Source: Candidatus Bathyarchaeota archaeon
Lineage (GTDB): Archaea > Thermoproteota > Bathyarchaeia > TCS64
Length of the DNA: 64,000 nucleotides
Reading direction: 5' to 3'
Assembly: GCA_043826455.1 (NCBI GenBank)
Contig: JBDRQD010000046.1
Span: forward strand, 32,001-96,000
Of the stretch, positions 23,538 through 49,384 are shown piece after piece; the first letter of the stretch is position 1, and every line of letters starts with the position of its first letter. Position numbers and translations under genes: made by a program. The notes under the pieces are model-generated. The model was not told the origin of the DNA. It worked only from the letters and a program-made list of their open reading frames with translations, and did no database searches.

Positions 23538-23944
23538 CGTGTTTTCTGGGTCTCCAGAGTCTAGGACGAGGAGGCGTCTCACCGAGGAAAAAGCATGAAT
23601 CATGAGATGGAATTTTTTTTCCGCCTTATCCCGGCTGGCACGGGATAAGCCACCCAGGAAACTACACGCCAGCGCGTCGGCCCCAGGAATAAGGAGGGGG
23701 TAGAGCAGGTGAACCGGAAACGGCCGCACCACACCAAAAGGGCTCCTAAAACCGGTCCGACGCCGCAAGAATCTTCACAGAAACACGGTCTATTCAGCAC
23801 ATCAGACACGCTGCATCGGAGCCGATGTGAAAAAAGGTAGGGGGTATCACCTAATGACGATTTTCTCTATTATTAAGGGATACCCGCCCCCATGAAACCG
23901 ACACCCGAGGCACCAGCCAAAGAAGAACATAACCCAAATCCTCT
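23538..23944 (-). repeat. Dispersed non-coding element, copy A (full length)
   Basis: Reverse complement is colinear with 48942-49384 across many blocks; contains the hairpin cttatcccg/cgggataag. Confidence 0.88.
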
Positions 23945-23977
23945 TGTAATATAAGCAGGGGTTCCCCACAAGATATT

Positions 23978-24445
23978 ATGTCTGACATAGTCAAGAAGCT
24001 ACAGGAGCAGAAGGAGCTTGAGCTGAGCCACGTCAAGAGCCTGACGCCCTTGGCCAAGAAGACAGGCCACCCCCTAGTGAAGGTGATCCTCCAGTCCGTT
24101 ATCCATGACAGCGGTAAGCACGCCTCCATATGCCAGGCTCTAATAGACGTCAACGCCGGCGAGACGCCTTACAAGCTGGACCTGGACATGGCTAAGGCCG
24201 TGGAGTTGCACCAGAACATCAAGCAGCACATCAGGGTCGAGTCCAAGATGATCACAAGGCTCGAGACCATGGTGAAGGAGGCTAAGGATGACAGAGTCGC
24301 GGAGCTCCTCAGGTTCATGCTGGAGGACGAGAGGAGACACCATAGGCTCCTCACCGGGCTCTCCAACCTCCTGGACAGGGACGAGACCGCCCTGGACGAG
24401 TACATGAAGCTCTTCCAGACCTTCATGATCGTCCCCCCAGAGTAA
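23978..24445 (+). CDS. Ferritin-like (rubrerythrin-type) four-helix protein
   Basis: Duplicated E...DSGKH and E...DERRH motifs. Confidence 0.8.
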   Translation: MSDIVKKLQEQKELELSHVKSLTPLAKKTGHPLVKVILQSVIHDSGKHASICQALIDVNAGETPYKLDLDMAKAVELHQNIKQHIRVESKMITRLETMVKEAKDDRVAELLRFMLEDERRHHRLLTGLSNLLDRDETALDEYMKLFQTFMIVPPE

Positions 24446-24562
24446 TAACCCACCTTTTTCTTCATCCTCTTCACGTAGAGGGCGGATAGCAGAACTTTTA
24501 CAATGAAACTCTTTCATCCATAAACTTATGCAGCCTAAACCAACAGGATCATTGAAGCAGCC

Positions 24563-25774
24563 TTGCCCAAGATAGTCGGACTCGTCGGAAAAGCCAACGT
24601 CGGTAAGAGCACCTTCTTCGCGGCAGCCACCCTCAAACACGTAGAGATCGCGGCCTTCCCCTTCACCACCATCAAGGCCGATAGGGGGGTCGGCTACATC
24701 AGGGCCCCCTGCGTCTGCAAGGAGCTGGAGGTCACGGACAACCCCCAGAACAGCGCCTGCGTGGACGGCGTCCGCCTCATCCCCGTGGACCTCATAGACA
24801 CCCCCGGCCTCATCCCCGGCGCCCACATGGGCAAGGGCCTGGGCAACCAGTTCTTGGACGACGTGCGCCGCGCCGACGCCCTCATAGTTGTGGCCGACGC
24901 CTCGGGCGCCACGGACATCAACGGTCAGCCCACTGACCCGCTGAGCCACGACCCCGTGGAGGACGTCCAGATGTTCGAGGAGGAGTTCGACCTGTGGCTC
25001 AAGGCCCTTCTGGCCAAGGACTGGGACAGCATCGTCCGCACGGCCCAGGCCAAGAAGGAGAACGTGGACAGGCACCTGGAGGACAAGCTCACGGGCCTAG
25101 GCATCAACCGGGTTCAGATAGCTCAGGCGCTGCAGGAGGCCGGCCTGGACGGCTTCAAGAGCGGCCAGTGGACGGATGAAGATTTCATGGGGTTCGCCAC
25201 CACCCTCAGGAAGGTGAGCAAGCCCCTGATAGTGGCGGCCAACAAGGCGGACAGGGACGGCGCCGAGGAGAACGTGAAGAGGATCAGGGACGCAGGGTAC
25301 AGGGTGGTAGCCATCTGCGCGGAAGCCGAGCTTGCGCTGAGGCGGGCGGCGGACGCCGGCCTCGTGGAGTACACGCCGGGAGATGGTGACTTCAAGATCA
25401 AGAGCCCGGAGAAGCTTTCGGAGGGCCAGAGGCGGGCCCTGGAGAGGATCAGGGAGAAGGTTTTCAGTAAGTACGGGTCCACGGGGCTACAGCAGGCCAT
25501 CAACGAGGCGTTCTTCAGCCTCCTGGACATGATAACAGTGTACCCCGTGGAGAACGCTGAGAAGCTCACCAACCACCACGGCCACGTGCTCCCTGACTGC
25601 TACCTGGTCCCCAGGGGCACCACGGCCAAACAGTTCGCAGCCCTCATACACACGGAGCTGGCGGAGGGCTTCATATACGCCTTGGACGCCCGCACCAAGA
25701 AGCGGCTGGGCGACACCTATATCCTAGAGGACCGCGATGTTATTCAGATCGTCTCGGCCAGGGGCCGAAGATAG
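24563..25774 (+). CDS. Obg-family translation-associated GTPase/ATPase (YchF-like) with TGS domain
   Basis: GKANVGKST, FPFTT, GLGNQFLDD, ANKAD. Confidence 0.93.
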   Translation: MPKIVGLVGKANVGKSTFFAAATLKHVEIAAFPFTTIKADRGVGYIRAPCVCKELEVTDNPQNSACVDGVRLIPVDLIDTPGLIPGAHMGKGLGNQFLDDVRRADALIVVADASGATDINGQPTDPLSHDPVEDVQMFEEEFDLWLKALLAKDWDSIVRTAQAKKENVDRHLEDKLTGLGINRVQIAQALQEAGLDGFKSGQWTDEDFMGFATTLRKVSKPLIVAANKADRDGAEENVKRIRDAGYRVVAICAEAELALRRAADAGLVEYTPGDGDFKIKSPEKLSEGQRRALERIREKVFSKYGSTGLQQAINEAFFSLLDMITVYPVENAEKLTNHHGHVLPDCYLVPRGTTAKQFAALIHTELAEGFIYALDARTKKRLGDTYILEDRDVIQIVSARGRR

Positions 25775-25780
25775 GTGAAC

Positions 25781-26701
25781 ATGATGGTTAAGGTGCTGGT
25801 GGCGGACTCCATCCACGAGGACGGGGTCAAGATGATGAGGGACGCGGGCCTGGAGCTGGACCTCCAGACCGAGATCACGGCGGATGCCCTCAAGAAGGTG
25901 ATAGGCGGCTACGACGCCATAGTGGTCCGAAGTCGGACGAAGCTCACCAAGGAGGTCCTGGAGAAATCCGGGAAGCTGAAGGTGATCGCCAGGGCGGGCG
26001 TCGGCCTGGACAACGTGGACGTGGCCTACGCTAAGGAGAAAGGTATCGAGGTCTATAACAGCCCGGAGGCGCCCAGCAACGCGGTCGCGGAGCTGGTGCT
26101 GGGTTATATGCTGGACCTGGCCAGAAACATCAGCCGCGGCGACCACGGCCTCAAGCAGGGCAAGTGGCTCAAGAAGGACCTGGGCGGCTTCGAGCTCCAA
26201 GGTAAGACTCTGGGCATCATAGGGTTCGGCCGCATCGGGTACCTGCTGGGCAAGAAGGCCAAGGCCCTGGGCATGGAGGTCCTGGCCTACGACGTGATCA
26301 TGGACAAGCTCAGACACTTCGTCGTGGAGATAGGGGCCAGGGACGTGCCCCTGGACACCCTGCTGGCTGAGAGCGACTTCGTCACAGTCCACGTGCCCCT
26401 TCTACCCCAGACCAGGCACATGATCAGCGCAGCCCAGTTCAACAAGATGAAGAAGGGCTCCTACATCATCAACGCGGCCAGGGGCGGCGTCGTGGACGAG
26501 GCGGCCTTGAAGGCGGCTCTTGACGCGGGGCGGCTGGCGGGGGCCGCCCTGGATGTCTTCGAGCAGGAGCCGGACCCGGACCCTGACCTGGTGACCAGAC
26601 ACAACGTGGTGTGCACGCCCCACATAGGGGCGGAGAGCGAGGAGGCCCAGGTAGGCAACAGCACCATCGTGGCCGAGAAGCTCATCAAGTTCTTCAAGTA
26701 G
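25781..26701 (+). CDS. D-2-hydroxyacid dehydrogenase (SerA-like, no ACT domain)
   Basis: RAGVGLDNVD, GFGRIG, INAARGGVVDE, TPHIGA. Confidence 0.92.
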   Translation: MMVKVLVADSIHEDGVKMMRDAGLELDLQTEITADALKKVIGGYDAIVVRSRTKLTKEVLEKSGKLKVIARAGVGLDNVDVAYAKEKGIEVYNSPEAPSNAVAELVLGYMLDLARNISRGDHGLKQGKWLKKDLGGFELQGKTLGIIGFGRIGYLLGKKAKALGMEVLAYDVIMDKLRHFVVEIGARDVPLDTLLAESDFVTVHVPLLPQTRHMISAAQFNKMKKGSYIINAARGGVVDEAALKAALDAGRLAGAALDVFEQEPDPDPDLVTRHNVVCTPHIGAESEEAQVGNSTIVAEKLIKFFK

Positions 26702-26769
26702 CCCCCTTTTCTTCAACCACCCGAAATCGTATCATTCATTAACCTGTCCACCAGCCCTATGGATAACTG

Positions 26770-28047
26770 ATGATAACCATACTAGGTGCAGGCCTGGCGG
26801 GCCTCAGCGCCGCCTACCACCTGGGAGACGGCTACAGGGTCCTGGAGCGTGAGGCTGAGCCGGGCGGCCTGTGCAGAAGCTTCGAGGAGAAGGGCTACGT
26901 CTTCGACATCGCCCCCCACATACTGTTCTCGAGGGATGAGTACGCCCGCGGCCTCTTCGCCAGGCTGCTGGAGGGCAACCTGCTGACCCATGACCGCCGA
27001 GCCTACATCTACATGATGGGCACCTACGTCAAGTACCCCTTTGAAGTTAACCTGTACCCCCTTCCCCGGGAAGTCATAGAGGAGTGCATCCAGGGGGTGG
27101 TGGACAGGCCCGCCCTGAAGCCGGGTAACTTCAGGGAGTGGATTCTCGCCTCCTTCGGGGAGGGGATTGCCAGGCACTACATGGTGCCCTACAACGATAA
27201 AACATGGAAGTACCCCCTGGAGAAGATGAACACTGAGTGGCTAGGGGGCCGCGTCCCAAGCCCCAGCGTCGAGGAGATGAGGAGGGGCGCCAAGGGCGAG
27301 CAGGAAGTAGACTACGGCCCCAACGCCCAGTTCTGGTACCCCATGGTGGGCGGGATCGGCTCACTGCCCAATAGGCTGGCTGAGGGGCTGAACGTGTCCT
27401 ACGGGTCCGACGCCGTTGCGGTGAGGCCCACCGAGAAGGGTGTGAAGGTCACCTACAGGAAAGGTGGAGCCGCCAAGACGGTGGAGTCGGAGTACGTGAT
27501 GTCGTCGCTTCCTCTACCAGAGCTCGTGAAGATGTTGCCCGAGGTCCCCGAGGACGTGGTGAAGGCCACGGACAGGCTGGTCCACAACAGCATCGTCTGC
27601 GTCAATGTGGGGGTCAAGAGGCCCAGCATCACAGACAAGCACTGGCTCTACTTCCCGGAGGCCCACCTGCCCTTCAACAGGATCAGCTTCCCCATGAACT
27701 TCAGCCCGGGGACCACCCCGCCTGGCCGCAGCAGCGTCCTGGTGGAGGTGACGTACAGGAGCAGGCAGCCGGACCTAGAGGAGACAAAGGAGGGGGTGCT
27801 GCAGGGCCTGGTGGACGCGGAGCTCATGTTGGAGGGCGACGAGGTGGAGGTCTGCCAGGCGTCCAGCTACAGGTACGCCTACGTCATCTACGACCTGGAC
27901 CACAGGAGGAACGTCGAGGCCGTACACAGGTACCTCAGGGAGAACAGGGTCATACCCATAGGCAGGTTCGGGGAGTGGGAGTACTACAACATGGATAAGG
28001 CCATCCTCTCGGGTAAGAGAGCGGCTGAGGCCCTGAAGGGGAGCTAG
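26770..28047 (+). CDS. FAD-dependent oxidoreductase (UDP-galactopyranose mutase/HemY-like)
   Basis: ILGAGLAGL, GGLCRS, GRFGEWEYYNMD; coupled to a GT2 gene. Confidence 0.85.
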   Translation: MITILGAGLAGLSAAYHLGDGYRVLEREAEPGGLCRSFEEKGYVFDIAPHILFSRDEYARGLFARLLEGNLLTHDRRAYIYMMGTYVKYPFEVNLYPLPREVIEECIQGVVDRPALKPGNFREWILASFGEGIARHYMVPYNDKTWKYPLEKMNTEWLGGRVPSPSVEEMRRGAKGEQEVDYGPNAQFWYPMVGGIGSLPNRLAEGLNVSYGSDAVAVRPTEKGVKVTYRKGGAAKTVESEYVMSSLPLPELVKMLPEVPEDVVKATDRLVHNSIVCVNVGVKRPSITDKHWLYFPEAHLPFNRISFPMNFSPGTTPPGRSSVLVEVTYRSRQPDLEETKEGVLQGLVDAELMLEGDEVEVCQASSYRYAYVIYDLDHRRNVEAVHRYLRENRVIPIGRFGEWEYYNMDKAILSGKRAAEALKGS

Positions 28048-28048
28048 C

Positions 28049-28777
28049 ATGATCTCCGTGGTGGTGCCCACCTACAACGAGGAGAAGAACATAGAGGGCT
28101 GCCTAAGGTCACTGGTAGATCAGACGGTGCCCCGTGAAGAGATCGACATCATCGTGGTGGACGGGGACAGCACGGATCGGACCAGAGAGATCGCCGAGGG
28201 CATAGCCGACAACTTCATCATCCAAACCAGTGAGGGAGTGGGCGGAGCCAGGAACGACGGCTTCGCCATAGCTCGCGGCGAGATAGTGGCCACCACGGAC
28301 GCTGACTGCCACCCCTTCCCGGACTGGCTAGAGATCATCCAGCGCAACTTCATGGATCCGAAGGTTGTGGCCGTCACCGGGGTCCTGGTGCCCTTCGACT
28401 TCGGCGGCATGGGCAGAGTGGAGGAGTTCGCGTACCGGCTCCTCTTTGACCTGTCTAACGTCGCACTGGTGGTGATGAGCTGGTTCGGTAAGATGCACCT
28501 GTGCGGGGCCAACTCGGCCTTCAGGAAGGACGCGTTCCTGGAGGCTGGGGGCTACCTGCCCCTGGCCTACGCAGATGACGTGGAGATATACAAGAGGGTC
28601 AAGGAGAAGGGTACTGTGAGGCTGGACACCGGGATGAGGATAAACTATAGTGTCCGCCGCATCAGGAAGGTGGGGCTCCTAAGGTACATTCTGCTGTTGT
28701 TCAGGATGGAGTGGGATGTCATGGTGATGGGTAGGAAGCCTGTGAAGGGTGGGTACGCTAGGCAGACCTATGAGTGA
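28049..28777 (+). CDS. Glycosyltransferase family 2
   Basis: ISVVVPTYNEE, VVDGDSTD, ATTDAD. Confidence 0.92.
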   Translation: MISVVVPTYNEEKNIEGCLRSLVDQTVPREEIDIIVVDGDSTDRTREIAEGIADNFIIQTSEGVGGARNDGFAIARGEIVATTDADCHPFPDWLEIIQRNFMDPKVVAVTGVLVPFDFGGMGRVEEFAYRLLFDLSNVALVVMSWFGKMHLCGANSAFRKDAFLEAGGYLPLAYADDVEIYKRVKEKGTVRLDTGMRINYSVRRIRKVGLLRYILLLFRMEWDVMVMGRKPVKGGYARQTYE

Positions 28778-28969
28778 GGTGGGGTTTTTGTTGGGGGGAT
28801 CGTTGGGTCTTTGTGTTTTCGTTGTGTGCGCGTGGGGGGAGGGGGGGTCCCATCACCGCCACCGCGATTCCCCGTTTTCCGGCTTTTTTTCTGGTTCAGA
28901 GGCTTTTTTAGGGTTCTTTGGCGGTGGCGGTGGTTTGTGGTGTCCGTCGTGTCTGTGGTCGCGTGGGTT

Positions 28970-29203
28970 GTGTCGTTGTGGGGGGTGGTCGGTGTTCCTG
29001 TGTGGATCAGGGTCGTGTTAGACTGGTTTCTGGGGTCTTTTCGGTCTGGTGTGGACGTTTCTGGTTTCTCTGCCATCTCCCTTTCTGGGGGCTGGTGCCA
29101 GTGTGGTGGGTGATGAGTTGCATGCAAGGCTTATGCTCTCCAGGAGGGTGTAAGGTGGAAAAATATTCCATCTCCTGCCTCATGATTTTACTTCAGTGAG
29201 ATG
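28970..29203 (+). repeat. Dispersed non-coding element, copy D (diverged, in a G/T-skewed tract)
   Basis: actggtttctggggtcttttcggtctggtgtggacgtttctgg and ggcttatgctctccaggagggtgtaaggtggaaaaatattccatc match copies A and B; left boundary uncertain. Confidence 0.8.
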
Positions 29204-29282
29204 TTTCCCCGTTTAACTGGTTTGTTACATGGAACAATGTAGCTAACATCCCATTTTCTGAATTCTTCATAGGTGAACTGGT

Positions 29283-30197
29283 CTACTCTCTGTTTCTCAG
29301 CTTCACCGCGTCGTAGACCCCCGCCAACAGAAACTGAACACCCACACCCAGGAACAGCCCCGAGTCGAACACCAGCCTATCATACCTCTCCCTCAGCCCC
29401 GGCAACTCAAAGACGACCCTGAAAGACTGTAGCAGAGGATACCCGTGAGGACTACCGAACCTGACGCTGCCCTCCAAGATGAGAGACCTGTGACCCGCCG
29501 CCCACTCGCGCCAGTAGATCGACTCGCCCACCGGCTGAGGAATTGACTCCACGACCCTGCTTTCAACGGGCAGGTCCACCCTCAGGCTGACCAGCGGCTC
29601 ACCGCTCAGCCAGCAGGCGTCAGGCCTCACATCCAGCGCCGCCTCCGAGTCGCTGTTGCTGAAGGGCACGGCCAGCTCGTAGCTCGTGTACCCGACCCTG
29701 GAGACCGCACCGAACCACCGGAAGCTCACCATGACCGTGAACATCGGGTACTTCGACTCCGGCTTGAACTCATAGTACATGACCGAGACGTCCTCTTCGG
29801 GCACCCACTCTATGACCGCGTCCCCCGTGTAGTATATCTCCCGGGACTTCTCGTCGTCGAGCCCCATCACCTTGAAGAAGGCACCCTCGACCCTGTGGGG
29901 CACCTGCAGGCCGAACATGATCTCCCCCTCGCCCTGTACAGCGACCTCCCCCGCCAGCATGCAGTCCACGTACCCCTCCTCCAGCGAGATCGACGTCACC
30001 TCGAAGGTCATCTCATCGGCCTCAAAGTCCCGCGACGCGAAGGGCAGAACACCGTAGTAGGGGAGGATGACCGCCTGGTGCCCCTGCGAGACCTCCATGG
30101 AATACATCACCCCGAGGGCCGTGAACACGATCCCCACCACAAGCGGGAAATACACTATAGCGGCCCGCAGCCTCTGACGGTAAAGGCGCTCAAACAT
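29283..30197 (-). CDS. Hypothetical membrane protein (two TM, beta-rich loop)
   Basis: 304 aa ORF with hydrophobic segments near both termini. Confidence 0.7.
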   Translation of the reverse strand: MFERLYRQRLRAAIVYFPLVVGIVFTALGVMYSMEVSQGHQAVILPYYGVLPFASRDFEADEMTFEVTSISLEEGYVDCMLAGEVAVQGEGEIMFGLQVPHRVEGAFFKVMGLDDEKSREIYYTGDAVIEWVPEEDVSVMYYEFKPESKYPMFTVMVSFRWFGAVSRVGYTSYELAVPFSNSDSEAALDVRPDACWLSGEPLVSLRVDLPVESRVVESIPQPVGESIYWREWAAGHRSLILEGSVRFGSPHGYPLLQSFRVVFELPGLRERYDRLVFDSGLFLGVGVQFLLAGVYDAVKLRNRE

Positions 30198-30450
30198 GAA
30201 TAATCATCGCGAGCCACGACATATATAGCGTTAATCAGCAGGCAACACTGAAAAGACGACGCAAAGAACCATTACAATTGTTATCCTTTTAATAATTTCA
30301 ACGTAGAACATAGATGTGATAAACCATGAAGCGTGCGCGCTCCGTTTCTATAACAATTAATTATTATAAGACGAGAAAGTGCACTGAAATCTTCCACCTT
30401 TTACATGGAACACGTTCAAATGAAACCTGGTCGATTGTAGGGTTTCTGGG

Positions 30451-30909
30451 CTAGTTCTTTCTGCCTGCGACCCAGCCCACGTCCTTGTCGGACTTTATGG
30501 CCGGGTGGCTTGGGTCCACCATGATTACCTCGAACCACTTGTAGCGGCCGTCCTGCCACACCCAGTAGCTGTTAAGCACCTCCATGTTGGGGTACTTCCG
30601 GGCCGCCCTCTCCTCGGCTATGAGCCTCCTGCTCTTGGCCGGCGTGTACTTGGTTACGCCCATCCGTTTCTGCCTGCGCCCCAGCACCGGCCTCAGCTTC
30701 TTGCGGCCGCCCCTGGGCACCCGTGACCTGACCACAACGAAGCCCTTCTTAGCCTTGTAGCCCAGGCTGTGGGCCCTGTCGAGCCTCGTGGGCGTGTCCA
30801 GTCTGACCACTGAGGGCTGCTTGCGCCAGGTTATGGCCCTCTCCCGCATGATGTCTTGAACGTAGCTGTCCTTGGGGCTCTTCCAAGCGTCTCTGAGGTA
30901 CTTGTACAT
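30451..30909 (-). CDS. rpl15e: 50S ribosomal protein L15e (short)
   Basis: [46 protein letters not shown]. Confidence 0.95.
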
Positions 30910-30981
30910 GGCTGTTTTCCTCGTTGGGCTATCAAAGTAGACTGGTTCAAACTAATAAAGATAATGGGAACCCCGCACCGC

Positions 30982-33030
30982 CTAGAATATGGAGAAGAGG
31001 AGGAAGAGGGGCAGGAAGACGTGGGCCACCAGCCCGATGACCGTGATGAGCGTGTTCAGGCTGGGCCCCGCCGTGTCCTTGAAGGGGTCACCCACGGTAT
31101 CGCCTATGACAGCGGCGTGGTGGGCGTCGCTGCCCTTGCCTCCCAGATGGCCCTCCTCTATGTACTTCTTGGCGTTGTCCCAGAGGCCGCCCGCGTTGCT
31201 CATGAGGAGCGCTAACAGGAGGCCGCTGAAGATGCAGCCCGCAAGGTACCCGCCCAATGCCTCCACGCCGAAGATGAAGCCCACGGCCAGGGTCACGACG
31301 ATGGCCGTGACGCTGGCGGGCAGCAGCTCCTTGATGGCGCCCACTGTGGCTATGTCCACGCACTTGGCGTAGTCGGGCACGACGCCCTCCTTACCCTCCC
31401 GGAGGCCCGGTATCTCGCGGAACTGGCGCTGGATCTCCTCGATCATCCTAGACGCGTTCCTGCCGACCCCCAGCATGAGCTGGCTGCTGAAAACAGCTGG
31501 CATGGCGACGCCGATAAGGGCGCCCACCATGACCAGGGGGTTCATGAGGTCGAAGGAGACCGCGGCGCCCAGCTCGGCCTCGGCCACCGCCTTGAAGGCG
31601 GCTAGGATGCTGATGACCGTCAGCCCGGCCGCGCCAATGGCGAAGCCCTTGGTGATGGCCTTGCTGGTGTTGCCGGCCGCGTCCATGGCGTCCAGTATCT
31701 CGATTGTCTTGTGGTCCAGGCCACCCTGCTCGGCGATGCCCTTGGCGTTGTCACCGATGGGGCCGAAGCTGTCGGTAGCCACCACCATGCCCACGATGCT
31801 GAGCATACCGAAGGCGGCGATGCCGATGCCGTAGACGCCGTAACCGGGGCCTATGGCCTCGGTCACCGTGTGGGCTATCCACGCGGCCAGGCCGATCCCC
31901 ACCAGGGGCGGGAACACGCTGAGGAGCCCGTAGCTGAAGCCCGTGATGATGTTGATGGCGGCGCCCGTGACGCTGCTCTCGGCAGTGTTCTTGGCTGGGG
32001 GCCGGTTGATGCTGGTGAAGTAGTCGCTGGTGACGCCAATGACAACACCGGCGATGAGACCTACAGCTGCGGCGCCCCAGAACCTGATGTTATAGCCCAG
32101 CATAGTGGTAGCCAGGTAGCTGAGAACCATGAAGAGGCCCACAGTGACGTAGGTGCCCCTGTTGAGCACCGAGCCTGGGTCCCCGCCCTCCTTGACGCGG
32201 ACCACGAAGATGCCTATGAGGCTGCTGAAGGCGCCAAGGCCCGCGAAGACCAGAGGCAGCTCCAGTAGGTAGCCGCCCAGCACCTGGCCCAAGACCATGA
32301 CGGCCATGAGGCTGGCCACGTAGCTGTCGTAGAGGTCGGCGCCCATCCCCGCAACATCGCCCACGTTGTCGCCCACGTTGTCGGCGATGACAGCAGGGTT
32401 CCTAGGGTCGTCCTCGTCCAGGTCCATCTCCACCTTGCCCACGAGGTCTGCGCCGATGTCAGCCGTCTTAGTGAATATGCCTCCGCCGGCCTTGGCGAAG
32501 AGAGCCATGGCCGAGGCCCCGAAGCTGAACCCCAGGATGACGTTGGGGTCGCGGGTGAGGAAGTATAGGACGCTGACCCCGGCCAGCGCTAGGCCTATGA
32601 CGCTGGTGCCCATGACGGCTCCGCCCCTGAAGGCTATGGGGAAGGCCTTGGTGATGCCCTTGCGGGCCGCGCTGGCCGCCCTCAGGTTGGCGTCCGTGGC
32701 CACGTCCATCCCCAGCCAGCCGGCGATGGCGCTGCACACGGAGCCGAAGACGTAGCCGACGGCCAGTATGACGTTGGCCATGATGTTGTCGGTGGCCCAG
32801 ATGGGGTGGGGCAGGAAGATGAGGAGCACCAAGGCCATGACTGCGACGAACACGCCGAGGGTTCTGTACATGCGGTTGAGGAAGGCCCTCGCACCCTCCT
32901 TGATGGCGCCAGCCACGAACTGCATTCGCTCCGTGCCGGTGTCCTGCTTCCTCACGAAGTCGTGGATGTAGAAACCTACGAGAATCGATATAATCGCCGA
33001 TACTGGGGCTATGTACCATGCGTCAACCAT
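30982..33030 (-). CDS. hppA: Membrane-bound H+-translocating pyrophosphatase, predicted K+-independent
   Basis: [37 protein letters not shown] carries Lys at the K+-determinant position. Confidence 0.95.
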
Positions 33031-41735: not shown

Positions 41736-41805
41736 TCTGTTTCACACACGACTCCTCACCCCCAGGCTCCGCCCCACTTATAACGGGGCCTCTGAGAGTG
41801 AAGCC

Positions 41806-42474
41806 GTGCAGCGTCAGTTGCTGGAGAGACCGAGGCTGGGCGAGTCAAGCATGCATCTCTTCCTCAAACAAGTGGGGAGACTGTTCCTCCTCAACCAGGG
41901 GTGCCACACCGTGGAGACAGAGGTCAGGCTCAACCAGCTAGGCCTCCAGCGCCTTGACGAGCTGGACAACAAGAAGATAGTGGACGTGCTCGGCGTAAGC
42001 CTCAGGTACAAGCCCATCAACTGCAAGATGGCGCAGGGAGAGAACTGCGAGGACTTCACCCTGCCCCAGCCAAGCCTGTACGATGTAGGTATCAACGTCC
42101 TCAGGGGGGTGGAGGTGAAGGTGAGCAGAGGCGACTTCAGGAACGGGTTCATATGCGCCGGCTGCAACTACAACTACGTCCTCACCCCCACCAGGCTCGT
42201 GTCCCCCAGCCTCCTCCCCAAGGGCGTGGGCCTCATAGAGTACAACAGGTACAAGTTCAGCTGCGAGCCATCAGACGACCCCGAGAGACGCCCATACAGG
42301 ATCAGTGGGCTCAGGGTAGTCCGACGGGCACAGTACAAGGAGCTGCCCCGGTTCCAGGTGGACCACGCCATCGCCGCCGTGGCGGAGAGGAGGCTGTCAG
42401 AGGCTCAGAGGGCCGCACTTGCAGAGGTGCTGACAAGCCTGGACGACCCCGAGCTTGTGTACCAGGCACCCTAA
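41806..42474 (+). CDS. Hypothetical PD-(D/E)xK protein (MmcB-like)
   Basis: VDV...GVEVKVSRGDF...YNYVLTP...LPKGVGLI. Confidence 0.6.
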   Translation: MQRQLLERPRLGESSMHLFLKQVGRLFLLNQGCHTVETEVRLNQLGLQRLDELDNKKIVDVLGVSLRYKPINCKMAQGENCEDFTLPQPSLYDVGINVLRGVEVKVSRGDFRNGFICAGCNYNYVLTPTRLVSPSLLPKGVGLIEYNRYKFSCEPSDDPERRPYRISGLRVVRRAQYKELPRFQVDHAIAAVAERRLSEAQRAALAEVLTSLDDPELVYQAP

Positions 42475-43355
42475 TCGTTGAACAAGCTCTCGATGCCCTT
42501 GAGCCGGTTCCTCAGGGTGACCTCGGTGGTGCCCGCCGCCAACGCGACGTCCTTCTGGATGCGCTTCTCCTGGGTCACAATACAAGCCTTGTAGAGGGCT
42601 GCGGCCGCAAGGCCCCGGGGGTCCTTCCCCGTGAGGCCCTGCCTCTCCCCGGCCGCGACGAGGAGGTCTATGGCGTACCTCTCGGTGCGGGTGTTCAGGT
42701 TCAGCTTGGAGGCGATGCTGGGCACAAACTTTATGGGGTCATCCACGGGCATCCTGAGGCCCAGCTCCCTGATCATGAGCCTGTAGGTGCGCGCCACCTC
42801 GGCGTGGTCCCTAGTGGAAGCCTTCGACAGGTCCTTCAATGGGCGGGGCACCTTCAACTGTCTGCACGCGGCGTACACGCTGGCCGCCACGAAAGCGTCT
42901 ATGCTCCTGCCCCTGAGAAGGTCCTTCTTGAAGGCCCGCCTGTAGATGAGGGCGGCCCTCTCCTTCACGTTCCCGGGCAGGTGGAGCTGGGCTGACAGGC
43001 GGTCCAGCTCGGACATGGCCAGGTTCAGGTTCCTCTGCTGAGTGGTGTCCAGCTTGGCCCTGTTATCGAAACGCCTGAGCCGGGTCATCTTGATGCGGGT
43101 CTCGTCGTCCAGCCGGTTGCCGTTGTGGTCCTTGTCGGCCCTGAAGACAGTGGACAGCCCCTTATCGTAGAGGGCCAGCGACGAGGCGAGCCCGGCCCTG
43201 CTGCGGCTCTGGTTCTCCTGGGTGGTGAAGGCCCTCCACTCGGGGCCGGGGTCCACGATGCTGCTCTGAACCACAAGGCCGCATGCTCCGCAAACCTCCT
43301 CGCCGGTGTCGTAGTCGATTATCAGGTTAGAGCTTCCGCAGCTTGGGCACTTTAT
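42471..43355 (-). CDS. tfb: Transcription initiation factor IIB (TFB)
   Basis: Zn ribbon CPSCGS...CGACG lies upstream of GTG 43274; GPEWRAF, RGRS, GKDPRGLAAA, TEVTLRNR. Start probably ATA 43355 or CTG 43361. Confidence 0.93.
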   Translation of the reverse strand: MKCPSCGSSNLIIDYDTGEEVCGACGLVVQSSIVDPGPEWRAFTTQENQSRSRAGLASSLALYDKGLSTVFRADKDHNGNRLDDETRIKMTRLRRFDNRAKLDTTQQRNLNLAMSELDRLSAQLHLPGNVKERAALIYRRAFKKDLLRGRSIDAFVAASVYAACRQLKVPRPLKDLSKASTRDHAEVARTYRLMIRELGLRMPVDDPIKFVPSIASKLNLNTRTERYAIDLLVAAGERQGLTGKDPRGLAAAALYKACIVTQEKRIQKDVALAAGTTEVTLRNRLKGIESLFND

Positions 43356-43489
43356 ATTCAGTAGCCTCCGAACCTTAGGCTTCGGATGTGGGTTTCACTC
43401 GGAGGACGCGTTATAAGGATGCCGAGTACACCTAGATGCCTCAGATTGATAACCCATATATAGTGGGGCAAGTGTGTTCATCTGTAATC

Positions 43490-44059
43490 ATGAGCGGAAA
43501 GGACCCATTCCCGAAGGAGAAGACGGCCACCAGAACCATACGTATCAACGAGGCCTACGACGAGGCCCTGAGGTACGAGGCCGAGCGCCACGGTGTCAGC
43601 GTCAACACCCTGGTGGACCAGGTGCTGAGGCGGTACTCCCACAGCTACAGGTACTTCGACAACCTGAGCGCCGTCACCATAAGCGGCAAGACCCTGGAGA
43701 GGCTGCTCAGCAACATCCCGAAGGAGAAGATGGGCGAAATGGGCAAGGCCCTGGGGGAGGAGAGGCCCAAGAATCTGCTGCTGCTGAGGGGCCTGCCCCT
43801 GGACTACAACTCGGTGATGTGGTACCTGACCGAGCTCCTGGGGGACACCAGCAACTGGTACAGGGCTACGTACCATCGTAGGGGGGAATACGACATCCTG
43901 CACCTGAGCCACGGCTTGGGAGAGGGGTGGAGCCTCTTCCTGGAGAGGTACGTGACGGCCTTCTTCAGGGAGGTCCTGGGTATAACCCCCGAGACGGAGA
44001 CCCTGGGCGGCTCGGTCACCTTCACCATCGACATATCTAAACTCAAGAAAGGTAAATGA
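43490..44059 (+). CDS. Hypothetical RHH-like DNA-binding protein with C-terminal ligand-binding-like domain
   Basis: TRTIRINE...AERHGVSVNTLVDQVL; divergent from tfb; start placed at ATG 43490. Confidence 0.7.
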   Translation: MSGKDPFPKEKTATRTIRINEAYDEALRYEAERHGVSVNTLVDQVLRRYSHSYRYFDNLSAVTISGKTLERLLSNIPKEKMGEMGKALGEERPKNLLLLRGLPLDYNSVMWYLTELLGDTSNWYRATYHRRGEYDILHLSHGLGEGWSLFLERYVTAFFREVLGITPETETLGGSVTFTIDISKLKKGK

Positions 44060-44178
44060 GCACACGGCTAAAACGACTATCACTAAACAACCACATGGAT
44101 AGATCATCGTTTCATTTCGGTAGGTTTATACTGTCTAATCTCTCATTGTGAATAAAACCACTGAAAGGTGCATAGCGA

Positions 44179-44577
44179 ATGTCATTCAAGATGGCCAGAG
44201 TCGGAGAACTCAAGGAAGGAAGCTACGCCATAATCAACGACGAGCCCAGCCAGATAGTACAGATCCAGAAGAGCAAACCCGGAAAGCACGGGAGCGCCAA
44301 GTTCAGGTGCACCGCCATCAGCATCTTCGACGGCCGGAAACAGAGCTTCGTCAGCAGCGTGGACGCCACAGTCCAGATACCCATGGTCGACAAGAGGAGC
44401 GGCCAGATCGTGAGCATGGGCCCCAGCAGCCTACAGCTCATGGACATGGAGACCTACGACATCAAGGACGTGGCGCTGCCCATCGACGAAGAGATCAAGG
44501 CGAAGCTGGAGGCCGGCAAGGAAGTTGAGTACTGGATCATCATGGACAGGGTAAAGATCCAGCGCGTCAAGAACTGA
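44179..44577 (+). CDS. eif5a: Translation factor aIF5A
   Basis: SKPGKHGSAK hypusine motif. Confidence 0.96.
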   Translation: MSFKMARVGELKEGSYAIINDEPSQIVQIQKSKPGKHGSAKFRCTAISIFDGRKQSFVSSVDATVQIPMVDKRSGQIVSMGPSSLQLMDMETYDIKDVALPIDEEIKAKLEAGKEVEYWIIMDRVKIQRVKN

Positions 44578-44587
44578 AGGCGCACAG

Positions 44588-45526
44588 ATGAAGCGAGTTC
44601 ACCAGATGCGGCTCCGCCCCGGCATGACCGCCCTTGAGCTGGCGGAGGAGATGAAGCGGGCCGGGGTCATAGGGGCCGGACGGGTCGGCAGAGCCGTGGA
44701 CATCGTGGCGGAGATGTTCAGCGACCCCGAGTACACGGTTTTCATCACATTATCCGGGCCCCTGGTGCCCGGTGGACTCAGGCTGGTCTTCAGGGACCTC
44801 ATCAGGGACGGCTACGTGGACGCCGTGGTGACCAACGGCGCCAACATGGTCCACGACATAGTGGAGGCCATGGGCCGGAGCCACCTGGTGGGCACCGTGA
44901 ACGTGGACGACCAGCAGCTCTACGAGGAGGGCTACAATAGAGCCTACGACATCTTCATAGAGAGCCAGGCCTTCGTGGACATCGAGGGCTTCATAGGGGG
45001 AATCCTGGACGACATCCCGGAGGATAAACGCGTTGACACACCCATCCACGGGCTTCTCCGCGAGATAGGGCTCAGGCTCAAAGACCCTGACAGCATCCTA
45101 CACACGGCGGCCGAGAAGAACGTGCCCATATTCAGCCCCGGATTCCTGGACAGCATGCTGGGCATACCCCTGTGGCTCTACAGCCAGAGGAAGAAGCTGA
45201 CCATCAACCCGCTGAAGGACTTCAACCTGCTCTCGGACATGGTTTACGAGGCCAAGAAGTCGGGGGTCATCATCCTGGGCGGGGGCACACCGAAGCACCA
45301 CGCCCAGTACATGCACACCCTGAGGGACGGCCTGGACGCCGCTGTCCAGATAAGCAGCGCCAGGGTGGAGGACGGCAGCCTCAGCGGGGCACCCCTCTCG
45401 GAGTCCATAACGTGGGGGAAGCTCAAGGAGGGCGTCCTGGAGGAGAAGACCTCCACCATCTTCGGGGAGGTCACCACCATATTCCCCCTGATAGTGGCGG
45501 CCGCCCTGGAGAAGATCAGTGGCTAG
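44588..45526 (+). CDS. dys: Deoxyhypusine synthase
   Basis: NMVHD, LGGGTPKH, DGSLSGAP, WGK (catalytic Lys); adjacent to aIF5A. Confidence 0.94.
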   Translation: MKRVHQMRLRPGMTALELAEEMKRAGVIGAGRVGRAVDIVAEMFSDPEYTVFITLSGPLVPGGLRLVFRDLIRDGYVDAVVTNGANMVHDIVEAMGRSHLVGTVNVDDQQLYEEGYNRAYDIFIESQAFVDIEGFIGGILDDIPEDKRVDTPIHGLLREIGLRLKDPDSILHTAAEKNVPIFSPGFLDSMLGIPLWLYSQRKKLTINPLKDFNLLSDMVYEAKKSGVIILGGGTPKHHAQYMHTLRDGLDAAVQISSARVEDGSLSGAPLSESITWGKLKEGVLEEKTSTIFGEVTTIFPLIVAAALEKISG

Positions 45527-46248
45527 ACCAGTAGACGGGTGCCGCCATCCACCTGTAGGGTGGCTCCGGTGATGTATCGTGCCTCATCGGAGGCCAGGAA
45601 AAGGATCGGGCACGCAATGTCCCCAGGCTCCCCTACCCGCTTCAGGAGGGTCCTCTCCGTCCAGTACGTCTTCTCCTCCTCGGTCATACCCCACGTGTCC
45701 ACGGCGCCGGGGGAGACGGCGTTGACTCTCACTGGCGCGAGCTCCCGGGCGAGGCCGCGGGTGAGAGGCGTACCGGCGGCCTTGGTGAGGGTGTACCCCA
45801 CGCCCCCGGCGTCCCAGTCCATTACCACGTTCACTATGCAACCCGCGGCCTCCTTAAGGCGGGGGGCCGCCGCCCTGCTGCACACGATGACGGCCATCAC
45901 GTTCACCTCCATCATCCTTCTCCAGTGGCCCCAGTCGGGCTCCACCAAGCTGAACATGGGGGGAGGATGCACGGCAGCGTTGTTGACGAGGACATTCAGC
46001 CTACCGAGGCGCCGGGCGGCCTCCTCCACCATCTTCTCGGCTTCCGCGGGGCTGCTGAGGTCCGCTTGCAGTGTGAATGCGTTCCTGTGCATCTCGGCTA
46101 TCTTCCTGGCAACGTTCTCAGCGTTCTCTCTTCTGGAGTTGTAGTGGACCGCCACGTCGGCCCCCTTCTCAGCGAAGAGGAGAGCCGTGCGTCCGCCGAT
46201 CCCGCCGCTGGCCCCGGTAATTAGCACGCCCTTGCCTTTGAAGCTCAT
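45523..46248 (-). CDS. Short-chain dehydrogenase/reductase
   Basis: TGASGGIG, LVNNA, YTLTK, VDGG; start ATG 46248. Confidence 0.92.
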   Translation of the reverse strand: MSFKGKGVLITGASGGIGGRTALLFAEKGADVAVHYNSRRENAENVARKIAEMHRNAFTLQADLSSPAEAEKMVEEAARRLGRLNVLVNNAAVHPPPMFSLVEPDWGHWRRMMEVNVMAVIVCSRAAAPRLKEAAGCIVNVVMDWDAGGVGYTLTKAAGTPLTRGLARELAPVRVNAVSPGAVDTWGMTEEEKTYWTERTLLKRVGEPGDIACPILFLASDEARYITGATLQVDGGTRLLV

Positions 46249-46922
46249 CGGCTCACCCCCTCGGCGAAGGGCCTGTACTTCTCCAGGTCGCCCCTCCAGT
46301 CCACCTGGTTGATGGGCCACGTGTAGTGGGCCCGCCTGGGCTTGCAGATGAGTTCAAGGACCTCGAAGCCCTTGAAGAAGTCCACCGTGTTGGCGGCCTG
46401 GGCAACGATGGCCGTGTCCAGGCCCACCCAGCTCCCGGCCATGGCCACCGCCTCCTCCCCAGCCTCCAGATGGTCGGCGTCTGTGGCCTCCAGAACCGCT
46501 GTCATGCATACGTGGACTCCTCCGCAGATGACCTTGTAGAACATCATGCCAAGTTTGCCGGTGTCGATGAGGGGGCTGTGGGCGCCCAGGTTCCAGAAGG
46601 GGTCGGTTCCTCTCACCACGGGCGCCCCAAGCTCACTGATCCTCCTGAGCATCCCCTCGTCAGGTATCCCTATCCTGAGGTCGCCTATGGGGGTGTTCTC
46701 CACCCTCGTGCCGGCCGCGGAGGTGACGACGATGACCCTCTTCCCCTTGAAGACCTTGATGGCTTCAAGGGCGGTCAGCCCGGTCTCCGAGGCCACCACG
46801 GCCCTGTCTATTCCCAGCTCCAAGGCTCGGGCGTAGGCCAGCTCAATGGTCTTACCGGTGTTGATCTCTCCGTGGGCGTCGAAGTAGAAGCAGCCACGGT
46901 TGACGCCTAACTCGCCTCCCAT
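46245..46922 (-). CDS. Conserved archaeal protein, pyruvate-kinase C-terminal-like domain
   Basis: YFDAHGEINT, VVASETGLTA, GLDTA, ELICKP. Confidence 0.8.
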   Translation of the reverse strand: MGGELGVNRGCFYFDAHGEINTGKTIELAYARALELGIDRAVVASETGLTALEAIKVFKGKRVIVVTSAAGTRVENTPIGDLRIGIPDEGMLRRISELGAPVVRGTDPFWNLGAHSPLIDTGKLGMMFYKVICGGVHVCMTAVLEATDADHLEAGEEAVAMAGSWVGLDTAIVAQAANTVDFFKGFEVLELICKPRRAHYTWPINQVDWRGDLEKYRPFAEGVSR

Positions 46923-47015
46923 GGCCTGATTTATCGCGCAGTGAATATAAAACCGTGAAGGTTGGATGAGGCGGGGCTCACGCTCACCTTTTGAGCTGAA
47001 AAAAAGATGATGCTT

Positions 47016-47031
47016 GACCGGTTTTCCGGTC
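47016..47031. terminator. Perfect hairpin, possible terminator or protein site
   Basis: gaccgg-tttt-ccggtc downstream of the minus-strand cupin gene, followed on the minus strand by a T run. Confidence 0.35.
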
Positions 47032-47072
47032 TGCTTCTCATAAAAATGGAAGGGGACAGCGAGGCTCCGGCT

Positions 47073-47456
47073 TCACGTAGCCTTCTTGAAGTGCTCCGGG
47101 CCGACCTTGCCCTTCACATACTTCTTGAACTCGCTGCTGCACAGCTCAGCCACGAAGTCCCCGTCCCACCACTCGAAGGTGGTGATGTCCTCCTCCACCA
47201 CCATCACGTGGGGGACGCCGGCCTCCACCGTCGCCACCTCGCCGACCATGAGAGGCACCTCACGGTACCCTCCGCCCTCGTAGAGCACGTACTTGGCCTT
47301 GCCCGACACCAGCAGCGTGTACTGGCGGTTCGGGTGGATGTGGTTGCCCCTGTAGGAGCCCCTACGGGTCTCCAGCAGCGAGTAGAATCTTCCCTCTCGG
47401 TTGAAGGCGTAGCCTTTGCCTATTCCTTCAAAGGTTCCCCAGTCGTCTAGTTTCAG
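47073..47456 (-). CDS. Cupin-domain protein
   Basis: The open frame continues upstream of GTG 47309 as LKLDDWGTFEG...GSYRGNHIHP, cupin motif 1; motif 2 is GVPH. Probable CTG start at 47456. Confidence 0.7.
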   Translation of the reverse strand: MKLDDWGTFEGIGKGYAFNREGRFYSLLETRRGSYRGNHIHPNRQYTLLVSGKAKYVLYEGGGYREVPLMVGEVATVEAGVPHVMVVEEDITTFEWWDGDFVAELCSSEFKKYVKGKVGPEHFKKAT

Positions 47457-47648
47457 TGTGAGTTCTCGTTCACTCCTTTCCTTGGGATACTCTCAACCCC
47501 CATATTCCAATATTTATCATTTTTTGTAAATAATATTCCCCAGGGACTAGGGGTCACTCCGCGGGCAACGCGACTCATGCCCCGGCTAATATAACTTAGC
47601 CGAAAAAATGACGAAAAGAATATATTCACACACCATATCACCATAGGC

Positions 47649-48206
47649 ATGCTACCCGCCATCGACATAATCCCTGACAGACGCCGAAAACTGGGGCTCA
47701 CCCAGAACCAGCTGGCGGACCTGGCCGGAGTCAGCCAGAGCTACATAGCCAAGCTGGAAGCCGGGAAGATAGAGCCCAGCTACCTGAAGGTGAAGTCCAT
47801 CTTCGAGGCCCTGGACAAGATAGAGAGGAGGAAGGAAGTGTCAGCGGCCGAGATAATGACCGCGGACGTCATCAGCGTCCGGGCTGACGCAGCCATCCAC
47901 GAGGCCGTCGATATCATGCGTAGGCACGGGTTCAGCCAGCTTCCCGTGATGGACAGCGACAAGCCGGTGGGCGGCGTATCGGAGAGAACCCTCCTGGACC
48001 AGATCCTGTACCCTGACGACGACACCCCCCCGGGGCAGAAGAAAGTGAAGGACATCATGGAGGACAGCTTCCCCCAGGTCTCCGAGGACGCCCCCCTCAG
48101 CCTGCTATCGAGCCTACTGAAGTACTACCCAGCCGTGCTGGTGCAGAAGAAGGGAGAAGTGGTGGGCATCGTGACCAAGGCTGACCTCCTGGGAGTGATA
48201 AGCTAA
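47649..48206 (+). CDS. XRE-HTH plus CBS-domain transcriptional regulator
   Basis: LTQNQLADLAGVSQSYIAKLEAG HTH; FSQLPV and GIVTKADLL CBS pair. Confidence 0.92.
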   Translation: MLPAIDIIPDRRRKLGLTQNQLADLAGVSQSYIAKLEAGKIEPSYLKVKSIFEALDKIERRKEVSAAEIMTADVISVRADAAIHEAVDIMRRHGFSQLPVMDSDKPVGGVSERTLLDQILYPDDDTPPGQKKVKDIMEDSFPQVSEDAPLSLLSSLLKYYPAVLVQKKGEVVGIVTKADLLGVIS

Positions 48207-48243
48207 ACAACTTTTAAGAGCCACACGGGTGACCACTCTACCC

Positions 48244-48861
48244 ATGAAGCTCACGAAGAAAAACGTCCTGACCGCCGTGGTGCTGTTCCTCTTCTCGGGT
48301 TCAATTATTATCGGAGTAGCAAACCTATTGTTGAAGGAACCCGAGATGAAGGAGACAGCGGTACTGGAGACCAGCCTGGGAGTCATAGAGATCGAGCTTG
48401 ACAGGGCGAAGGCACCCAAGACGGTGGAGAACTTCATAGCCTACGTTGCGCAGGGCTTCTACGATGGCCTGATCTTTCACAGAGTCATGGCAGGATTCAT
48501 GATCCAGGGGGGAGGCTTCGAGCCTGACGGCACCTGGAGAACCCCCACCAGGGACCCTGTGAAGAGCGAGGCCAGGAACGGCCTGAAGAACGTGAGAGGC
48601 GCCATAGCCATGGCCAGGTCCGCTGAACCGGACTCGGCCACCAGCCAGTTCTACATAAACACGGTGGACAACCCCAACCTGGACTACCCTAACCCAGACG
48701 GCTACGGGTACACGGTGTTCGGCAAGGTGGTGAAGGGCATGGACGTGGTGGACGATATAGAGGCATCCCAGACGGGTAGAAAGATAACCCCATACGGTGC
48801 CATGAACGACTGGCCCACCGAAGACATAGTCATCATAAGGGTTTACATGAAGGAGAAGTAG
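48244..48861 (+). CDS. Cyclophilin-type PPIase with N-terminal membrane anchor
   Basis: FHRVMAGFMIQGGG, AMARS, SATSQFYIN, YTVFGKV. Confidence 0.93.
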   Translation: MKLTKKNVLTAVVLFLFSGSIIIGVANLLLKEPEMKETAVLETSLGVIEIELDRAKAPKTVENFIAYVAQGFYDGLIFHRVMAGFMIQGGGFEPDGTWRTPTRDPVKSEARNGLKNVRGAIAMARSAEPDSATSQFYINTVDNPNLDYPNPDGYGYTVFGKVVKGMDVVDDIEASQTGRKITPYGAMNDWPTEDIVIIRVYMKEK

Positions 48862-48941
48862 AACAAAGTCCCTCTCATGAGGAATTTAAACACCGATCCT
48901 TTTTTTCTGTGACGGCGATGTTGTACCTGGCCGTAAAATAT

Positions 48942-49384
48942 AGAGGGTTTTGGTTCTCTTTGGTTTGGCGCCAGGTCGCAGGCATCGGGGCTGGTGTCCT
49001 CTCTAATGATAGAAAAATTCGCCATTAGGTGATCCCCCCCCCCCACCTTTTTTCACATCCGGCATCTGTTGCGCCGTGTTTGATGTGCTGAGTGGGCCGT
49101 GTTTTTGTGTGGAATGGACGGCGTTTTTACATAGAATGGGATCGCATCTGACTGGTTCCGTGGCTCCTTTTGGCGCGGGGCACCTGTTTCCGGTTCCTCC
49201 GCTCTACCCCCCCTCCACCCCTCTATCCGGTGCCCGGTGCTGGCGTGTCGATTGCGCCGTTTTCCGGGTGTGGCTTATACCGTCCTAGAGGGTATAAGGC
49301 GGAAAAAAAATTCCATCTTTTACTTCATGTTTTTCATTGTTGAGGTTTCTACGATCCAATGGCTCTGGAGTCCTAAAAAACTCG
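48942..49384 (+). repeat. Dispersed non-coding element, copy B (full length)
   Basis: Colinear with the reverse complement of 23538-23944; hairpin cttatacc/ggtataag followed by gcggaaaaaaaattccatc. Confidence 0.88.

What the first reader, a model, noticed from the sequence alone, without database searches (positions are those of the whole stretch)
23538..49384. Unannotated ~400-440 bp dispersed non-coding element, four diverged copies in 64 kb
Seen in sequence: the intergenic blocks 23538-23944 (minus) and 48942-49384 (plus) are colinear homologs. Shared blocks include cattaggtgat-C-run-accttttttcacatc, tgatgtgctga, gtttccggttc..gctctacccc, gctggcgtgt, tggcttat-hairpin-ataaggcggaaaaaaaattccatc and ctctggag. 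A more diverged copy lies at ~28970-29203 and a core-only copy at 7956-8017. The copies differ by indels, so they are non-coding. All four are intergenic and three lie between convergent genes. No transposase is present in the window and I saw no clear terminal inverted repeats. Inference: either a family of non-autonomous mobile elements recognised at a hairpin (HUH/Y1 or REP-like logic), a multi-copy structured ncRNA, or a chromosome-organisation site. At this density the family may be abundant genome-wide.
Basis: partly seen in the sequence, partly recalled or inferred. Interest (0 to 1): 0.85.

Follow-up and report, generated by a model that had tools for sequence, protein, structure and literature searches.

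The report
IS5 mini-transposon with self-shuffling interior
The four repeats are copies of a non-coding mini-transposon, present at about 60 places in this archaeal genome, whose ends match an IS5 insertion sequence that likely moved it, and whose interior has likely been swapped piecemeal between copies after insertion.

Summary
The four window copies belong to a family at 59 loci in this 2.95-Mb archaeal genome, median identity 72%. These ends match a 1,236-bp IS5 with an unbroken transposase frame in a relative; a broken copy of that IS5 lies in this genome. Orthologous sites are empty in other species. It is a type II IS5 MITE, with no RNA structure or Rfam match. The less ordinary part is the interior. 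In a sister species (90% intergenic identity), same-site copies are no more alike inside than random copies. Tandem A units change in number in place, and the central module also occurs without IS5 ends in other relatives. Gene conversion between copies is the likely cause. The scan already noted this family on another piece of the same genome (e1-9863392).

The parts
23522..23943 (-). Copy 1, full MITE (422 bp): both TIRs, one A unit, B module with a 22-bp deletion, C module; flanked by TACA on both sides with a one-base offset at the left end
23928..23943 (-). Copy 1 left TIR (matches the IS5 end downstream of the transposase)
23522..23534 (-). Copy 1 right TIR, outer bases mutated (matches the IS5 end upstream of the transposase)
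23851..23875 (-). Copy 1 A-unit imperfect palindrome, followed by C-run and T-run; the sister species has three A units at this site
   Evidence: L250
23626..23648 (-). Copy 1 C-module 23-bp palindrome (7-9-7)
48943..49397 (+). Copy 2, full-length MITE with decayed right end; site empty in 10 congeners, filled (two A units) in sister species G065
48943..48958 (+). Copy 2 left TIR
48960..49059 (+). Copy 2 A unit (~95 bp; palindrome at 49003-49028); present in 1-3 tandem copies across the family
49097..49218 (+). Copy 2 B module: two ~22-bp direct repeats, then a C-tract about 105 bp later; also found without IS5 ends in relatives
49275..49318 (+). Copy 2 C-module palindrome (49275-49297) plus conserved A-run block
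28976..29215 (+). Copy 3, truncated at both ends (model 148-400), diverged
7956..8029 (-). Copy 4, C-module fragment (model 299-372) at the leuS 3' end

Best explanation
This is a non-coding miniature transposon (type II MITE, ~420-660 bp) with IS5-type terminal inverted repeats and 4-bp target duplications, likely moved in trans by an IS5 transposase, whose interior has likely been rewritten in place by gene conversion between its ~60 copies. Shown: TIRs, 4-bp duplications, the match to a real IS5, empty orthologous sites, block mosaicism, and loss of same-site identity in the interior. Inferred, step by step: (1) The IS5 DDE transposase binds the two ~17-bp ends, excises or copies the element and inserts it with a 4-bp staggered cut. 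(2) Insertions survive mainly in gaps between gene 3' ends. (3) The interior (A palindrome unit, B module, C palindrome) is not IS5-derived; it was likely captured from older dispersed repeats of this lineage. (4) Ordinary homologous recombination between the many moderately diverged copies converts tracts of roughly 20-130 bp, changes the number of tandem A units, and occasionally swaps flanks. (5) The transposase here now appears dead (broken remnant), so today's change is probably recombination, not transposition.
For: TIRs: left end in 24 and right end in 24 of 59 loci, both in 15. 4-bp duplication: 38 of 60 positions match versus 20.7 expected, 0 of 2000 shuffles reached it, 6 of 15 perfect; lengths 2, 3 and 5-10 not significant. 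The TIR pattern hit 21 of 70 genomes of the own family and 9 of 330 other class genomes, and bounds a 1,236-bp element in G054. That element has a 312-aa frame scoring 230 bits on NF033581 IS5 (cut-off 140) and a perfect 4-bp duplication. Of 30 related IS5 loci with GAG ends and flanks, 22 have a perfect 4-bp duplication, 0 a 3-bp one and 2 a 5-bp one. A broken cognate IS5 with its TIR lies at G000:C32. Empty sites: copy 2 gap is 25-87 bp in 10 congeners versus 550 here; copy 1 gap is 77-80 bp in 2 versus 498. One clean filled/empty pair between sister species has TTAA on both sides of a 459-bp insert. Mosaicism: r2 falls from 0.22 to 0.04 with distance, 0 of 500 permutations as strong, and identical 127-128-bp tracts occur between copies 84-86% alike. 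In 10 same-site pairs with G065, the ortholog was the best match in 0 of 9-10 pairs for four interior segments and about as alike as the median paralog, while intergenic DNA is 90% identical. Short-patch recombination between diverged DNAs is documented in Sulfolobus (PMC3367456, abstract); conversion of IS copies is reported for Wolbachia (PMC3196728, passages).
Against: 9 of 15 two-ended copies lack a perfect duplication, and 26 of the 59 loci show neither end above the display cut-off. No unbroken cognate transposase was found in this assembly. Transposition was not observed. Empty sites for the window copies are in species ~80% identical, so a single target copy cannot be read there; two of three apparent empty sites versus G065 look like deletions. 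Five of the 10 ortholog pairs rest on one syntenic flank. One B-containing ortholog fragment is still 90% identical and another 86%, so scrambling is not universal. Conversion is inferred from patterns; no enzyme was identified.
Confidence: 0.85

Rival explanations
1. The IS5 ends explain spread, but the interior is an active recombination handle: the B module and/or the palindromes are bound by a lineage-specific protein (nickase or relaxed-specificity tyrosine recombinase) that starts exchange, so the MITE carries recombination hot spots around the genome.
For: Forms lacking B keep 89-91% same-site identity (3 of 3 such pairs), while B-containing ones are mostly scrambled. The B core occurs in 9 of 79 order genomes and has no IS5 TIR near it in 13 of 13 loci from 6 relatives; in G011 it forms ~480-520-bp head-to-tail repeats with a C-like palindrome. 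Modules bound toxin-antitoxin cassettes at a hot spot after PCNA in three genomes. An archaeal integrase that recombines identical segments as short as 104 bp is known (PMC8371274, passage). The genome has 6 tyrosine-recombinase hits.
Against: Forms lacking B are also shorter, so less homology explains their stability equally well. Same-site identity is best kept at the ends, as expected for passive conversion. L252 contains B and is unconverted. No cognate transposase lay near the B core in 20 metagenome loci (other enzymes were not searched there), and the core was not found in viral contigs.
Confidence: 0.17
2. The mosaic interior is an assembly artefact of short-read binning (the MITE identity itself would stand).
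For: Both genomes are fragmented, many copies sit at contig ends, and G000 is listed at 7% contamination.
Against: Copies average 72% identity, and mosaic blocks are much shorter than the few long identical tracts. A separately assembled contig from the possible source run matches 23625-23805 of copy 1 with 0 differences, and its neighbours match both flanks with 0 differences (not an independent sample). Ortholog pairs keep locus-specific letters between swapped blocks.
Confidence: 0.05
3. HUH/Y1-mobilised hairpin element (IS200/IS605 derivative, REP/REPIN-like).
For: Conserved palindromes in A and C; the C spacer occurs in flipped form in at least 3 of 39 matches. An IS605 exists in the genome.
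Against: TIRs and variable 4-bp duplications do not fit Y1 chemistry (recalled). The IS605 at C11 gives no profile hit. The ends match an IS5.
Confidence: 0.03
4. Multi-copy structured non-coding RNA, or a chromosome-organisation site.
For: The central blocks are well conserved; copies are enriched between convergent genes (19 of 51 versus 63 of 314 similar-sized gaps, p=0.01).
Against: No consensus fold on either strand, and the top covarying column pairs are short-range haplotype blocks, mostly non-complementary. No Rfam match. Sites are empty in most congeners and presence is patchy. The palindrome is 7-9-7 and multi-copy, unlike the single-copy 11-6-11 dif site.
Confidence: 0.04

Closest known systems
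Archaeal IS5-family MITEs (partners of ISMma12, ISMac15, ISMba19, ISMbu10; PMC3852290 Table 4, passages seen)
   Same: Non-coding, multi-copy, similarity to the IS partner confined to IRs of under ~20 bp, IS5 partner family.
   Different: Those are 140-252 bp in 5-24 copies; this one is 420-660 bp at 59 loci, with a modular interior, tandem A units and in-place mosaicism. I did not compare sequences with those named elements (ISfinder not available).
Type II MITEs (PMC10969869, passages seen)
   Same: Conservation with the autonomous element confined to the TIRs.
   Different: The words 'gene conversion', 'mosaic' and 'modular' do not occur in that review's main text.
IS5 transposons of the NF033581 (transpos_IS5_4) type in Bathyarchaeia and methanogens
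   Same: Same GAGG-type ends and 4-bp duplication.
   Different: They encode a ~310-aa DUF772+DDE transposase; the MITE has none and shares no interior sequence.
Gene conversion among IS copies in Wolbachia wBm (as cited in PMC3196728, passages)
   Same: Recombination between dispersed non-functional element copies.
   Different: There it keeps copies highly similar; here it shuffles a standing pool of 2-3 block alleles among copies ~72% alike.
Modular interspersed repeats such as BOX and BIME, and mobile insertion cassettes (recalled, not from a call)
   Same: Variable numbers of internal modules; passenger genes between modules at one locus.
   Different: Bounded here by IS5 TIRs; no TIR was found on the cassette-bearing locus, so its mobility as a unit is unshown.

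Membership tests
MITE (type II) of an IS5 element | Short, multi-copy, no transposase | tested here: met
   59 loci, none overlapping a called ORF by more than 60 bp
MITE (type II) of an IS5 element | Terminal inverted repeats | tested here: met
   24 left and 24 right ends, 15 loci with both
MITE (type II) of an IS5 element | Target-site duplication of the partner's length | tested here: met
   4 bp in the MITE; 4 bp in 22 of 30 partner-type IS5 loci
MITE (type II) of an IS5 element | TIRs shared with an autonomous IS5; interior unrelated | tested here: met
   L107 ends and transposase; only a 21-bp, E=0.03 profile hit inside the IS
MITE (type II) of an IS5 element | Filled and empty alleles at orthologous sites | tested here: met
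MITE (type II) of an IS5 element | Mobilisation in trans by the transposase | not testable with these tools
   needs an experiment
IS200/IS605 or REP/RAYT (HUH) derivative | No TIR and no target duplication; ends shared with a Y1 element (recalled definition) | tested here: not met
Structured ncRNA | Conserved covarying secondary structure or Rfam match | tested here: not met
Structured ncRNA | Discrete transcript | tested here: inconclusive
   only contig-level RNA runs from other strains, short pieces
Xer/dif site | Single-copy 11-6-11 inverted repeat (PMC8371274) | tested here: not met
   7-9-7 palindrome, 39 matches
Already catalogued MITE (ISfinder or published survey) | Sequence match to a catalogued element | not testable with these tools
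   no ISfinder tool; supplement of PMC11602168 unreadable

The most novel reading that the evidence does not exclude
The MITE is a vehicle for an older, lineage-wide recombination-initiating DNA site (B module plus palindromes). IS5 ends scatter the site, and a dedicated archaeal nickase or relaxed-specificity recombinase then drives short-patch exchange, tandem-unit gain and loss, and toxin-antitoxin cassette swapping between copies only ~72% alike.
Probability: 0.15. Interest if true: 0.75.

Novelty: new variant of a known kind. Interest (0 to 1): 0.36.

Why it matters
As an IS5 MITE it is ordinary. The interior gives a natural, genome-wide readout of recombination between diverged repeats in an uncultured archaeon: the middle of most same-site copies turned over while neighbouring intergenic DNA changed about 10%. 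That makes tolerance of mismatched recombination in this lineage measurable from metagenomes, and it means copy similarity cannot be used to date such MITEs. If the B module proved to be an active initiation site, it would be a new route for gene shuffling in archaea.

Tried and rejected
Rfam: no match at gathering scores in the window; only chance-level hits for copy 2, best E=0.75; none at E<=0.1 in five other copies and two G011 repeats. RNAalifold and mutual-information covariation: no global structure. Y1/TnpB element at C11, IS110 genes and the six DDE_Tnp_1 hits of this genome: no matching ends. A 437-aa frame between A and C pieces in G013, first suspected to be a transposase, is a PLP-enzyme/SelA-like gene. 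The TIR-pattern hit in G014 lies inside a coding gene. Viral contigs: 0 B-core matches; 2 matches to a loose palindrome pattern, not examined. Metagenome scan: 20 loci, none with the cognate transposase. The adjacent G/T-rich repeat is near a MITE piece in 3 of 43 cases, about what 56 MITE-bearing gaps of 676 predict. RNA runs gave only short pieces from other strains and say nothing on expression; small-share runs were not used as habitat evidence. L214 and L216 were dropped as empty-site evidence because they look like deletions. The cluster look-up for names could not be made, so this genome's taxon rests on its archaeal genes, the Bathyarchaeia-labelled relatives of the IS5 and earlier scan notes. 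My notebook figure of 10/330 for one search was a miscount; it is 9 of 330.
Full report
Observation. The four blocks are real and homologous: copies 1 and 2 align at 68% over 410 columns (E=5e-31), copy 3 at E=3e-8, copy 4 at E=8e-16. The window is G000:C46:32001-96000 of a 2.95-Mb, 81-contig genome with archaeal genes. An iterated profile found 78 hits at 59 loci; 40 long hits built the final profile. The 36 near-complete copies have median identity 72%, range 57-93%. Of 51 loci with both neighbours called, 19 lie between convergent genes, against 63 of 314 gaps of 350-1200 bp (p=0.01). This fits insertions surviving away from promoters (inference).

Anatomy. In the finding's orientation: left TIR, one to three tandem ~95-bp A units (imperfect palindrome, C-run, T-run), a B module (two ~22-bp direct repeats and a C-tract ~105 bp later), a C module (23-bp 7-9-7 palindrome and A-run), right TIR. 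Short forms join A directly to C (~270 bp). The C spacer occurs in exact reverse-complement form in at least 3 of 39 matches.

Ends. A position-weight search found the left end in 24 and the right end in 24 of 59 loci, both in 15. The four bases outside the ends match at 38 of 60 positions (shuffled mean 20.7; 0 of 2000 shuffles reached it), 6 of 15 perfectly. Lengths 2, 3 and 5-10 were not significant (nearest: 8 bp, p=0.057). Nine of 15 are imperfect, which age or flank exchange could explain (inference).

Partner. No Y1, IS110 or DDE_Tnp_1 hit of this genome has these ends. A TIR pattern searched over 401 class genomes hit 21 of 70 in the own family and 9 of 330 elsewhere, and gave two inverted pairs ~1.2 kb apart. 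L107 (G054) is 1,236 bp with a 312-aa frame, NF033581 IS5 230 bits against a cut-off of 140, Pfam DUF772 + DDE_Tnp_1; L108 (G070) is a frameshifted relative. The two IS ends differ at the same position as the two MITE ends (TTAAC versus TTATC). Relatives occur in Bathyarchaeia-labelled, methanogen and Thermoplasmata records. Of the 80 loci returned I examined 71; 33 gave a TIR pair, 30 had GAG ends with flanks, and 22 of these 30 have a perfect 4-bp duplication. This genome holds a broken cognate at C32: residues 1-113 at 61% and 196-238 at 81%, with its TIR and in-frame stops. The IS interior is unrelated to the MITE interior, the pattern of type II MITEs (PMC10969869 and PMC3852290, passages).

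Empty sites. For copy 2, of 18 congener loci examined, 10 have both flanking genes 25-87 bp apart with no element, 1 (G065) is filled, 1 has a 1.2-kb gap without a hit, and 6 are not syntenic. For copy 1, of 16 loci, 2 are empty (77-80 bp), 1 has a 1.1-kb gap without a hit and 13 are not syntenic. G065 carries a 459-bp copy flanked by TTAA where G000 has an empty site; two other apparent empty sites look like deletions and were set aside.

Not an RNA. RNAalifold gives -5 and -4 kcal/mol against mean single folds of -127 and -109, and the strongest covariation is short-range and mostly non-complementary. Rfam finds nothing. Expression stays untested: the RNA runs are contigs from other strains.

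The interior is scrambled in place. Across 127 informative columns in 40 copies, r2 falls from 0.22 (1-5 bp) to 0.04 (161-420 bp); none of 500 permutations was as strong. Copies 84-86% alike share identical tracts of 127-128 bp, and each segment has a different nearest neighbour. G065 is a sister species: coding DNA 92.8% (48,439 bp), intergenic 90.0% (7,557 bp). Of 30 G065 loci examined (40 pattern hits, the last 10 being opposite-strand reads of listed palindromes), 19 mapped to a G000 copy. I compared the 10 near-complete pairs, leaving out short forms, fragments, a duplicate and a truncated partner; 5 of the 10 have both flanks syntenic. For model segments 101-145, 146-200, 262-310 and 311-360 the same-site copy was the best match in 0 of 9-10 pairs. 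Its mean identity (0.63, 0.70, 0.56, 0.85) was near the median paralog (0.63, 0.77, 0.62, 0.82) and below the best paralog (0.82, 0.94, 0.77, 0.96). At the two ends it was best in 3 of 9-10. A-unit number differs at the same site: 1 versus 3 at window copy 1, 1 versus 2 at copy 2. Against this: two A+C forms and one C-only form keep 89-91%, and two B-containing fragments keep 90% and 86%. An assembly cause is unlikely: a separately assembled contig of the possible source run matches 181 bp inside copy 1 without differences, though that run is not an independent sample.

Origin of the interior. The B core matched 9 of 79 order genomes. In 13 loci from six relatives no IS5 TIR pattern lay near it; it stands as a ~130-bp repeat in G017, G063 and G085, and in G011 within ~480-520-bp head-to-tail repeats with a C-like palindrome. 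The modules therefore likely predate the MITE (inference). A, B and C pieces bound PIN and HEPN toxin-antitoxin genes at a site after PCNA in G000, G013 and G019. Twenty metagenome loci and the viral collection gave no cognate transposase or viral source.

Mechanism. IS5 transposition in trans explains spread (0.85 for the whole best explanation; the MITE identity alone is firmer than the cause of the mosaicism). Passive short-patch recombination is the simplest cause: Sulfolobus recombination generates diversity from short, moderately diverged DNAs (PMC3367456, abstract only), and conversion of IS copies is known (PMC3196728, passages). An active site acted on by a dedicated enzyme is not excluded; an archaeal integrase recombines identical segments of 104 bp (PMC8371274, passages).

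Novelty. Searches listed no paper on this element (listings and abstract starts seen). ISfinder could not be searched, and the supplement of a survey of 8,220 archaeal genomes (PMC11602168, passages) could not be read; it may hold this family. An earlier scan note on another piece of this genome reached the IS5-MITE reading (e1-9863392); I saw it after my TIR and duplication test and then tested the partner link myself. Verdict: a new, unusually modular and recombining variant of a known kind; interest 0.36.

Noticed in passing
window 28824-28942 (+): A separate ~125-bp G/T-rich repeat with 43 hits in the genome abuts copy 3. It is near a MITE piece in 3 of 43 cases (chance level), each time in the same orientation and at a truncation.
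   Followed up: partly
G000:C31:8145-9592; L011:5064-8572; L012:3814-16829: Variable region after the PCNA gene holding PIN and HEPN/nucleotidyltransferase toxin-antitoxin cassettes bounded by A, B and C modules in three genomes.
   Followed up: partly
L099, L104, L105, L111, L116-L118: A second, ~105-bp MITE family with the same IS5 ends in G015, G066, G073 and G083, several with 4-bp duplications.
   Followed up: no
L238, L244, L255-L263 (G011): A ~480-520-bp head-to-tail repeat without IS5 ends that contains the B core and a C-like palindrome.
   Followed up: partly
window 7926-8029; L018, L218: The gap after leuS also carries a B-type repeat in G011 and G063, in the opposite orientation to copy 4; possibly a repeat-landing hot spot.
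   Followed up: no
G000:C11:12.6-14.1 kb (L031): IS605-type element with tnpA (one TAA inside the match) and tnpB, in a contig with integrase and large unknown genes.
   Followed up: no
G000:C36:24451, C46:15348, C55:74226: Another short dispersed repeat seen three times during the end scan.
   Followed up: no
L188, L199, L201, L203, L207 (G065): Five G065 copies have their two flanks on different G000 contigs, possibly rearrangements at the element or contig breaks.
   Followed up: no
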